The notes under the pieces were generated by a model. The model saw only the letters and a list, made by a program, of their open reading frames with translations. It did not search any database and had not been told where the DNA came from. From the NCBI RefSeq assembly GCF_055900595.2, contig NZ_CM148325.1: a DNA stretch of 64,000 bases, one strand, 5' to 3'. Position 1 is the first letter of the stretch. Each line of letters begins with the position of its first letter. Below, piece after piece: positions 31,150 through 31,900 of the stretch. The translations under genes and the position numbers were made by a program.

Positions 31150-31900
31150 GCACATCCCGTGGCCCCCTGCATGGCTAAAGCATGGAAAGCGGAAGAAAAA
31201 GCGCAATGAGGTCGTAGGACGAACGGTTCGGGGAAGGCTGAAGAGTACGTATCTGGTCCTGAAGACCGGATAAACCTTCATCGGTCCAACGTTTAAGCCA
31301 CTTGTAGCTAGTGGCAGGAGAAATGCCGTAGTGACGGACCCTGTAAATAATTCTGTGTAACTGCCCACGATTAAAGGTGGCCGCTCAGGCGGTCACCGTA
31401 TTCGATAATAAATTGTGTGATTCATAGACATCGTTTCAATTTTCTCAGCTCAAGTTCAAGCTGGTTATTCTGTTCCTGTATATGCTCCTCATTGGGCTGA
31501 TAGTTTGCGTGAACGGCATCAGAGTATGGCGTTTTCTTAGCAAGTTCAAAGTAGAGCGCCATCGGAGTTATCAGCCACCCACAGCTGGTCAGGATGTTCT
31601 GCCACGAACTGACGATTCACACAATCGCCTGCGGCAACGACTTTCCTGCTGACTGTAAACAGAACGAAGGTCGGCGGTGAAATAACGGTCTTTGCCCTCA
31701 CCTACGCCATGGCCCAGCGCCCGGCTCATGTCGTAGCCATCGCTTTCACGCGGGCATCCATTGCGGCGTCGTTCAAAACCATACCTCCCCAGCCGCAAAT
31801 ACCGGGTAACCTGATACTTCACAATAAGATTGGTGCGTGGATGATAGATTGCCAAATAATAATCCATCAAGAAATAATGACAACAAAAAACATCAAACAT
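31150..31900 (-). mobile_element. Degenerate transposase/integrase-like remnant (frameshifted fragments)
   Basis: Minus-strand frames give an HTH-like fragment GQLHRIIYRVRHYGISPATSYKWLKRWTDEGLSGLQDQ (resembles N-terminal HTH of IS3/IS481-type transposases), a zipper-like EQNNQLELELRKLKR piece and QFVAEHPDQLWVAD (resembles the start of an IS3-type integrase core), scattered over several frames with stops. Family not determined. Confidence 0.35.

What the first reader, a model, noticed from the sequence alone, without database searches (positions are those of the whole stretch)
31150..31900. Frameshifted transposase/integrase-like debris at the right edge of the insert
HTH-like and integrase-core-like peptide fragments occur in several frames with stops, consistent with a decayed IS element marking the insert boundary next to the fimbrial operon promoter. 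Alternatively this is the locus I vaguely recall as the yneL pseudogene in K-12. An IS remnant here could also affect fimbrial operon expression.
Basis: partly seen in the sequence, partly recalled or inferred. Interest (0 to 1): 0.3.

Follow-up and report, generated by a model that had tools for sequence, protein, structure and literature searches.

The report
Dead insertion-sequence scraps beside fimbrial operon

Summary
The window is E. coli chromosome: lsr, autotransporter, hipBA, a 6.7-kb variable segment (25220-31887), then the F9 (f9/ydeQRST) fimbrial operon and ydeP.

All debris lies on the minus strand:
- 31196-31337: an IS481-family transposase HTH fragment (aa 34-81 of 384).
- 31337-31413: the last 77 nt of an IS256-family (ISEc39-like) element, with its terminal repeat.
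- 31414-31569: the last 156 nt of an ISEc18-like (IS481-family) element, with an exact 25-nt right inverted repeat.
- 31570-31657: 88 nt from the middle of an IS3-family (IS1203-like) transposase gene.
- 31658-31817: an internal alpha/beta-hydrolase fragment (aa 136-192 of 352) carrying a 13-bp deletion.

No transposase gene is intact, and neither terminal repeat has a partner in the 64 kb. K-12 carries yneL (an AraC-type fragment) at this position, but yneL has no match in the window.

Sequence shared with other E. coli starts at 31888, about 131 nt upstream of the inferred f9 start site. The mapped -35, -10 and H-NS sites would therefore be untouched. Only 17-18 of 5426 complete E. coli genomes carry this arrangement, and RefSeq already annotates three of the five pieces as pseudogenes.

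The parts
31144..31195 (.). 52-bp unassigned G+C-rich (63%) linker between the stop codon of the ankyrin-repeat gene (29170-31143, + strand) and the first IS fragment.
   Evidence: No match to any of the IS or hydrolase references. Composition.
31196..31337 (-). Internal 5' fragment of an IS481-family transposase gene. It is the HTH/leucine-zipper region, aa 34-81 of a 384-aa transposase, or nt 179-319 of a 1285-bp element with 52-nt inverted repeats.
   Evidence: tblastn 75% identity over 48 aa, E 5e-17. blastn 87% over 141 nt to the E. marmotae plasmid element L009. Inverted repeats of that element. Pfam HTH_28, HTH_23 and LZ_Tnp_IS481 at or above gathering score. NCBIfam transpos_IS481 is the best hit. 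60% identity to ISEc19/YagA. PGAP calls it a partial 'helix-turn-helix domain-containing protein'.
31337..31413 (-). Last 77 nt of an IS256-family (ISEc39-like) element. It holds the final codons of the transposase (FIIEYGDRLSGHL*), a hairpin, and the terminal repeat ...GTTACACAGAATTATTTACAGGGTC (31337-31361). This true IS end abuts the IS481-family fragment, so the IS256-like element inserted into it.
   Evidence: 88% identity to nt 1229-1305 of the 1305-nt ISEc39 in L015. All copies diverge immediately after GGGTC. Identical 76-77-nt solo copy at K-12 yjhZ-yjhR. The terminal repeat occurs once in the window. Not annotated by PGAP.
31414..31569 (-). Last 156 nt (nt 865-1020 of 1020) of an ISEc18-like IS481-family element. 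It holds the C-terminal 48 codons of the transposase (31568-31425) and an exact 25-nt right inverted repeat, TGAAACGATGTCTATGAATCACACA (31414-31438). The repeat abuts the interior of the IS256-like element, so ISEc18 inserted into it at ATTTATT.
   Evidence: 92.3% nt identity (E 1e-61) and 85-87% aa identity (E about 1e-21 to 4e-22) to ISEc18 in L010 and L011. ISEc18 inverted repeats. Only one copy of this repeat in 64 kb, with 0 expected by chance. AT-rich target and 7-bp duplication GATAAAA in L011. PGAP calls it 'IS481 family transposase, missing N-terminus'.
31570..31657 (-). 88-nt internal fragment of an IS3-family (IS1203/IS629-like) transposase gene. It encodes ..SRKVVAAGDCVNRQFVAEHPDQLWVAD, the N-terminal edge of the catalytic domain. 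It is joined at both ends to unrelated sequence by illegitimate junctions, and no IS end is present.
   Evidence: 86-89% nt identity to IS3-family transposase genes; 3594 of 5426 genomes hold a match to the 101-nt query that contains it, E 5e-23. Junctions seen in alignment A1. 81% aa identity over 32 residues to the IS1203 reading frame. NF033516 positions 199-222. Not annotated by PGAP.
31658..31817 (-). Internal fragment of an alpha/beta-hydrolase gene (aa 136-192 of 352, including the GICGWGG nucleophile-elbow region). It is frameshifted here by a 13-bp deletion relative to strains N96 and EC42405.
   Evidence: tblastn 76-81% identity in two frames (E 1e-16) and blastn 76% over 173 nt to L016. 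79-81% aa identity to plasmid hydrolases of Kosakonia, Klebsiella, Salmonella and E. coli. 13-bp deletion. PGAP calls it 'alpha/beta hydrolase, frameshifted, partial'.
31818..31887 (.). 70-bp unassigned AT-rich (31% G+C) stretch. It is probably a lineage-specific continuation of the AT-rich f9 upstream region. It contains an inverted partial copy (31845-31859) of the TTATTTGGC.ATATAAAA motif that occurs twice further downstream.
   Evidence: No match to the hydrolase gene. Composition. Repeats D7, I14 and I15. Present only in the 18 genomes of this lineage.
31888..32271 (+). Conserved f9 regulatory region, not part of the debris. It runs up to the major-subunit start codon at 32272. It holds the -35 TAGACG (31983-31988), the -10 CATAAT (32007-32012) and the inferred transcription start G at about 32019.
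   Evidence: Homology with 5027 of 5426 E. coli genomes begins at 31888. Promoter scan. In CFT073, 5'-RACE put the start site 251 nt upstream of the ATG, with -10 CATAAT, -35 TAGTCG and an 18-bp spacer (PMC3966885).

Best explanation
Window 31196-31817 is an 'IS graveyard': inert scars of successive nested insertions and deletions. It lies in the known hypervariable spot between hipBA and the F9 fimbrial operon.

The inferred order rests on which junctions are true IS ends:
1. An IS481-family element was present.
2. An IS256-like (ISEc39-like) element inserted into its HTH-coding region. Its terminal repeat abuts that fragment at 31337.
3. An ISEc18-like element inserted into the IS256-like element at an AT-rich ATTTATT site. 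Its exact right inverted repeat abuts the IS256 interior at 31413/31414.
4. Illegitimate deletions then joined the interior of ISEc18 to the interior of an IS3-family transposase gene, and that to the interior of an alpha/beta-hydrolase gene.

What remains is 142, 77, 156 and 88 nt of the four elements and 160 nt of the hydrolase gene. All five pieces lie on the minus strand, pointing away from the fimbrial operon. No intact transposase remains and neither terminal repeat has a partner, so the debris is not expected to transpose (inferred). It encodes no product beyond chance chimeric ORFs. It most likely has no role beyond marking past recombination.

The mapped f9 promoter lies in the conserved block that starts 230 bp to the right of the last IS fragment.

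Shown here: fragment identities, boundaries, lack of intact parts, and rarity. Inferred: the order of events and the lack of function.
For: Context:
- Locus order and annotation from nearly identical RefSeq genomes (99.7% over 40 kb).

Fragment identities:
- IS481-family HTH fragment.
- IS256/ISEc39-like end.
- ISEc18-like end with its exact inverted repeat.
- IS3-family piece.
- Hydrolase fragment.
- In the whole 64-kb window these four IS types occur only as these fragments.

Other support:
- No Rfam family matches 30900-32400.
- No plasmid carries the mosaic.
- Only 17-18 of 5426 complete E. coli genomes carry it, always at this locus.
- Between the two sub-lineages the IS part differs by 4 of 462 nt. 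That is similar to the flanks, so nothing suggests special constraint or accelerated decay.
- Conserved sequence, including the f9 -35, -10 and start site, begins at 31888.
- The literature already describes the region immediately 5' of f9 as variable, with insertions and deletions (PMC3966885).
Against: - Lack of function is inferred from anatomy, not tested. No expression data were available.
- Consensus sigma-70-like hexamers facing the operon occur at 31818-31845 and 31849-31878. These are pattern matches only.
- PGAP annotates a 51-aa chimeric ORF (31546-31701) as a hypothetical protein in one strain.
- All five fragments share one orientation, which the nested-insertion model does not require.
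- Two boundary coincidences remain unexplained. The IS256-like remnant is cut at the same internal base here and at K-12 yjhZ-yjhR. The N96 deletion ends within 0-4 nt of the hydrolase/IS3 junction.
Confidence: 0.9

Rival explanations
1. A single IS element that decayed in place by frameshifts and stop codons.
For: HTH-like and transposase-like peptides all lie on one strand within about 460 bp. PGAP labels two of the pieces as HTH and IS481-family fragments.
Against: - The pieces match four different elements at 87-92% nt identity, with sharp junctions.
- Their order is wrong for one element: reading 5' to 3', a C-terminal end comes before an N-terminal HTH.
- The two IS481-family pieces are only about 35% identical to each other's parent protein.
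- Two different right-end terminal repeats are present and no left ends.
Confidence: 0.03
2. The region is the yneL pseudogene of K-12, a remnant of a non-mobile regulator gene.
For: K-12 yneL occupies the equivalent chromosomal position, between hipA and the f9/ydeT genes. Most E. coli carry that HTH fragment there.
Against: - yneL is an AraC-type C-terminal fragment on the opposite strand relative to the debris.
- The K-12 segment holding yneL (L004 6284-6750) has no blastn match in the window.
- The YneL peptide has no tblastn match better than E 1.0.
- The HTH in the window is IS481-type.
Confidence: 0.01
3. The debris, or the replaced upstream sequence as a whole, changes F9 fimbrial expression in this lineage. 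This could work by altering H-NS nucleation, by supplying an outward promoter, or by read-through from the ankyrin-repeat gene. This reading is compatible with the best explanation for what the sequence is.
For: - The lineage-specific sequence starts only about 131 nt upstream of the inferred start site, 20 nt beyond the most distal proposed H-NS motif at -111.
- Promoter-like hexamers face the operon at 31849-31878.
- Apart from one weak terminator-like site at 31445-31464, no + strand terminator-like site lies between the ankyrin gene stop (31143) and the f9 promoter.
Against: - The mapped core promoter and all six proposed H-NS motifs lie in the conserved block.
- The IS fragments are at least 360 nt upstream and point away.
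- The 70 bp next to the junction are as AT-rich as the conserved f9 upstream region itself.
- The authors of PMC3966885 found no evidence linking the variable 5' region to f9 control.
- Nothing was tested here.
Confidence: 0.1

Closest known systems
ISEc18 (IS481 family), as named in RefSeq/PGAP annotation of E. coli plasmids
   Same: Window 31414-31569 is 92% identical to nt 865-1020 of the 1020-bp element. This includes an exact 25-nt right inverted repeat and the last 48 codons of the 323-aa transposase.
   Different: Only 15% of the element remains. There is no left end, no HTH, no catalytic domain and no target duplication.
Unnamed IS481-family element of Escherichia marmotae plasmid pRHB24-C12_2 (1285 bp, 52-nt inverted repeats); more distantly ISEc19/YagA
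   Same: Window 31197-31337 is 87% nt and 75% aa identical to the HTH/leucine-zipper region, aa 34-81.
   Different: Only 11% of the element remains, neither end is present, and the fragment is cut by the IS256-like end.
ISEc39 (IS256 family), and the solo 76-77-nt remnant between yjhZ and yjhR of E. coli K-12
   Same: Window 31337-31413 is 88% identical to the last 77 nt of ISEc39 and 100% identical to the K-12 solo remnant. It ends at the same terminal GGGTC.
   Different: Only the terminal 6% of the element is present, and here it is sandwiched between two IS481-family fragments.
IS1203/IS629-type IS3-family elements
   Same: 88 nt at 86-89% identity to the transposase gene region encoding NRQFVAERPDQLWVAD.
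   Different: It is an internal fragment only. There are no inverted repeats, no frameshift site and no catalytic residues.
yneL pseudogene and the variable 5' region of the f9 operon (Wurpel et al. 2014, PMC3966885)
   Same: Same chromosomal slot between hipBA and f9. The paper already describes this slot as variable, with insertions, deletions and putative regulators.
   Different: There is no sequence similarity to yneL. This rare variant (17-18 of 5426 genomes) carries a 6.7-kb segment with an ankyrin-repeat gene and the IS/hydrolase debris instead.

Membership tests
IS481 family (ISEc18-like fragment, 31414-31569) | Sequence homology to a named IS481-family element | tested here: met
   92% nt identity over 156 nt; 85-87% aa identity over 48 aa.
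IS481 family (ISEc18-like fragment, 31414-31569) | Single intact DDE transposase gene with an N-terminal HTH | tested here: not met
   Only aa 276-323 of 323 remain. There is no Pfam rve hit.
IS481 family (ISEc18-like fragment, 31414-31569) | Pair of terminal inverted repeats flanked by a target-site duplication | tested here: not met
   The right inverted repeat is present and exact at 31414-31438. No second copy exists in 64 kb at up to 3 mismatches.
IS481 family (second element, HTH fragment 31196-31337) | Homology to an IS481-family transposase from an element with inverted repeats | tested here: met
   75% aa and 87% nt identity to a 384-aa transposase within a 1285-bp element with 52-nt inverted repeats. 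NF033577 is the best hit, and LZ_Tnp_IS481 scores 22.7 bits against a cutoff of 22.2.
IS481 family (second element, HTH fragment 31196-31337) | Intact transposase and both ends | tested here: not met
   Only aa 34-81 remain, and there is no match to either 52-nt inverted repeat.
IS256 family (ISEc39-like, 31337-31413) | Homology to the element terminus including the terminal repeat | tested here: met
   88% identity to the last 77 nt of ISEc39. All copies diverge right after the terminal GGGTC.
IS256 family (ISEc39-like, 31337-31413) | Transposase gene and a second terminal repeat | tested here: not met
   Only the last 13 codons remain. The terminal repeat occurs once in the window.
IS3 family (31570-31657) | Homology to an IS3-family transposase gene | tested here: met
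   86-89% nt identity, E 5e-23. 81% aa identity over 32 aa.
IS3 family (31570-31657) | orfA/orfB with a programmed frameshift, DDE domain and terminal inverted repeats | tested here: not met
   88 internal nt only, with both junctions inside the gene.
yneL (K-12 AraC-type pseudogene) | Sequence similarity to K-12 yneL | tested here: not met
   No blastn match. Best tblastn E 1.0, elsewhere in the window.
alpha/beta hydrolase gene (31658-31817) | Homology to an annotated alpha/beta-hydrolase | tested here: met
   76-81% aa identity to aa 136-192 of a 352-aa protein. The 58-aa fragment had no Pfam hit.
alpha/beta hydrolase gene (31658-31817) | Complete open reading frame | tested here: not met
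   Only 16% of the gene remains, and a 13-bp deletion shifts the frame.

The most novel reading that the evidence does not exclude
The replaced upstream sequence, which ends only about 131 nt from the inferred f9 start site, may give this rare E. coli lineage a different temperature- or H-NS-dependent F9 expression pattern. Separately, the 77-nt IS256-like end may be more than a random scrap. It is 100% identical and cut at exactly the same internal base here and at the unlinked K-12 yjhZ-yjhR site. That could reflect a site-specific cut, such as an ISEc18 insertion hot spot, or a small mobilised unit.
Probability: 0.08. Interest if true: 0.3.

Novelty: already known. Interest (0 to 1): 0.08.

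Why it matters
It matters little. It is a worked example of how nested IS insertions and deletions scar a recombination hot spot, here the hipBA-f9 junction that the literature already describes as variable. It also corrects the annotation slightly: PGAP misses the 88-nt IS3-family and 77-nt IS256-family pieces, and it labels the IS481-type HTH generically. Its practical value is as a lineage marker for the rare f9-upstream variant that carries an ankyrin-repeat gene.

Tried and rejected
- yneL identity: rejected by blastn and tblastn.
- A single decayed IS: rejected by per-fragment alignments.
- The Xre-type HTH fragments at 26100-26240 and 28712-28858 as the missing half of the IS HTH: rejected. 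They are HTH_3 regulator fragments, not transposase.
- My first reading of 31338-31413 as anonymous 'flank' shared with the SMS-3-5 aerobactin island: replaced by its identification as an IS256-like terminus.
- My first guess that the hydrolase fragment held an HGGG oxyanion motif: wrong. It aligns to the GxCxG nucleophile-elbow region, aa 136-192.
- An ISEc18 end extending 8-10 nt further: rejected. The extra similarity reflects an AT-rich target preference, seen as the 7-bp duplication GATAAAA in L011.
- Non-coding RNA: no Rfam match.
- Plasmid origin of the whole mosaic: no plasmid carries it.
- Partner terminal repeats: none in 64 kb.

Full report
**Context**

The window is E. coli chromosome. 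Over 40 kb it is 99.7% identical to strain E200086. The annotated order there is lsrDCA, lsrRK, an ECSE_1600-family autotransporter, hipBA, a variable segment, the F9 fimbrial operon (fimA-like major subunit, chaperone, usher, ydeS, ydeR, ydeQ), then ydeP.

Comparison with K-12 MG1655 gives these matches:
- ydeP to ydeT aligns to window 41468-35374.
- A 204-bp f9-upstream remnant aligns to 32092-31888.
- hipA and sequence to its left aligns to 25219 downward.
- The about 470 bp of K-12 that hold yneL have no counterpart in the window.

So window 25220-31887 (6.7 kb) replaces the yneL segment. Homology with 5027 of 5426 complete E. coli genomes starts at 31888. The finding's coordinates therefore lie at the right edge of a lineage-specific segment.

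**Observation**

Minus-strand translations show transposase-like peptides in three frames, separated by stops. PGAP annotates three pseudogene fragments at the identical locus in RefSeq genomes: a partial HTH protein, a partial IS481-family transposase and a partial alpha/beta hydrolase.

**Dissection**

All pieces are on the minus strand. They are listed here from the fimbrial side toward the ankyrin-repeat gene.

1. 31817-31658, alpha/beta hydrolase.
   - It covers aa 136-192 of a 352-aa protein.
   - It is 76-81% aa identical to plasmid-borne homologues.
   - It carries a 13-bp deletion relative to strains N96 and EC42405.

2. 31657-31570, IS3 family.
   - This is 88 nt from the middle of an IS1203-like transposase gene, at 86-89% identity (E 5e-23).
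   - It encodes SRKVVAAGDCVNRQFVAEHPDQLWVAD.
   - Both junctions fall inside genes, so they are illegitimate joins.

3. 31569-31414, ISEc18-like.
   - This is nt 865-1020 of the 1020-bp ISEc18, at 92% identity.
   - It holds the last 48 codons and an exact 25-nt right inverted repeat.
   - The repeat has no partner in the 64 kb.

4. 31413-31337, IS256 family.
   - This is the last 77 nt of an ISEc39-like element, at 88% identity.
   - Four aligned copies all diverge just after the terminal ...CAGGGTC.

5. 31337-31196, second IS481-family element.
   - This is nt 179-319 of a 1285-bp element with 52-nt inverted repeats, from an E. marmotae plasmid.
   - It is 87% nt and 75% aa identical, covering aa 34-81 of the transposase, the HTH/leucine-zipper region.
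   - Pfam HTH_28, HTH_23 and LZ_Tnp_IS481 reach their gathering scores, and NCBIfam transpos_IS481 is the best hit.

Two stretches remain unassigned: 52 bp at 31144-31195 and 70 AT-rich bp at 31818-31887. In the whole window, these IS types occur only as these fragments.

**History (inferred)**

Two junctions are genuine IS termini. The IS256-like end abuts the IS481-family HTH fragment. The ISEc18 right repeat abuts the interior of the IS256-like element at ATTTATT. ISEc18 elsewhere sits in similar AT-rich targets, with a 7-bp duplication in L011.

This implies nested insertion: first the IS481-family element, then the IS256-like element, then ISEc18. Deletions followed and fused the ISEc18 interior to an IS3-family interior, and that to a hydrolase-gene interior. 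This is the usual look of an IS graveyard at an island border.

**Distribution**

- The full arrangement occurs in 17 of 5426 complete E. coli genomes, always at this locus.
- The hydrolase fragment plus the AT-rich 70 bp occurs in 18 genomes.
- The ankyrin-repeat gene plus the HTH fragment occurs in 16 genomes.
- No plasmid carries the mosaic.
- Strain N96 lacks 26114-31656, with an imperfect AAA(C/A)AG microhomology at the junction. The IS block is thus the right end of a 5.5-kb sub-segment.
- In the window, an Xre-type ORF reads continuously across 26113 apart from a frameshift in a T-run. This favours deletion in N96.
- However, the N96 right endpoint lies within 0-4 nt of the older hydrolase/IS3 junction. 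That coincidence is unexplained.

**Function**

- No transposase is intact and no terminal repeat is paired, so the debris is not expected to move. This is inferred from the anatomy.
- No Rfam family matches.
- Between the two sub-lineages the IS part differs at 4 of 462 positions, like the flanks.

For the suggested effect on fimbrial expression, the reference point is CFT073 (PMC3966885):
- The f9 start site was mapped 251 nt upstream of the major-subunit ATG.
- The -10 is CATAAT and the -35 is TAGTCG, with an 18-bp spacer.
- H-NS motifs were proposed from -111 to +89.

The window has TAGACG, an 18-bp spacer, then CATAAT at 31983-32012, and a conserved G at about 32019. The lineage-specific sequence therefore begins near -131. 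The hydrolase fragment begins near -200 and the nearest IS fragment near -360, all pointing away from the operon. The same paper already states that the region immediately 5' of f9 is variable, with insertions and deletions, and that nothing links it to f9 control. A regulatory side effect is neither tested nor excluded, but nothing points to one.

**yneL**

K-12 yneL encodes an AraC-type C-terminal fragment, SPLRYQKWLRLNEVRRQML...AYAVGYES. In window orientation it lies on the + strand. It has no blastn match in the window and no tblastn match better than E 1.0. Only the chromosomal position is equivalent.

**Verdict**

The interpretation 'IS debris at the edge of an insert next to the fimbrial promoter' is right in kind. 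However, it is a four-element mosaic plus a hydrolase scrap, not one decayed IS, and it is not yneL. This is ordinary and already partly annotated, so interest is low.

Noticed in passing
window 31337-31413; L014 3001-3077 (K-12 yjhZ-yjhR intergenic); L018 2501-2687 (strain E17 near yafV): The 77-nt IS256-like end is 100% identical to a solo copy in K-12. Both copies are truncated at exactly the same internal base (5'-ATTTATTATCG), yet their flanks differ on both sides. Strain E17 has a longer copy of 187 nt. In the window the cut is made by an ISEc18 end, but K-12 has no ISEc18 there. Truncation at the same site in two unlinked loci is unexplained.
   Followed up: partly
window 26108-26113 and 31657-31662; L006 (strain N96) 4995-5010: Strain N96 lacks 26114-31656. 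Its right deletion endpoint falls within 0-4 nt of the pre-existing hydrolase/IS3-fragment junction. Whether this is a microhomology deletion or N96-like is the ancestral state could not be decided.
   Followed up: partly
window 29170-31143 (+): A 657-aa ankyrin-repeat protein gene (Pfam Ank_2, E 9e-13). It is found in only 16 of 5426 complete E. coli genomes, always at this locus, and it converges on the IS debris. Its function is unknown, and its origin was not traced.
   Followed up: no
window 26951-28477 (-), repeats at 27095-27820: A 508-aa hypothetical ORF built largely of tandem 60-nt (20-aa) repeats, plus 9-nt CTTGCTGNT repeats near 28264-28316. In strain EC42405 the corresponding gene is interrupted by an IS100.
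   Followed up: no
window 26100-26240 and 28712-28858 (-): Two overlapping fragments of an Xre-type (HTH_3) regulator gene share a 69-nt direct repeat at 91% identity (26171-26239 and 28722-28790). They bracket the repetitive ORF. A lone MbcA/ParS/Xre-family antitoxin gene without a toxin partner lies at about 25756-25950.
   Followed up: partly
window 31845-31859, 31905-31926, 32021-32042: The motif TTATTTGGC(C/G)ATATAAAA occurs twice as a direct repeat flanking the f9 core promoter, and once as an inverted partial copy in the lineage-specific 70 bp. The two direct copies are recognisable in K-12 and other E. coli. This may be a regulator or H-NS-related site.
   Followed up: no
window 31888-41468 versus K-12 (L004) and typical E. 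coli (L007, L008): The f9 to ydeP region of this lineage is unusually divergent from other E. coli. The f9 upstream region and major-subunit gene are about 89% identical to typical E. coli, and ydeP to ydeT is 92.4% identical to K-12. By contrast, hipA and the autotransporter are 96.4% identical to K-12. This suggests a divergent or recombinant f9 allele.
   Followed up: no
L005 (E. coli SMS-3-5, next to iucA) 2578-4611: A related ISEc18-like remnant lies beside a frameshifted IS256-family element and an ISL3 pseudogene next to the aerobactin locus. Megablast matches to parts of the finding region occur in about half of the complete E. coli genomes (2699 of 5426). They comprise ISEc18-like remnants and, mostly, the 77-nt IS256-like end at yjhR or djlA.
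   Followed up: partly
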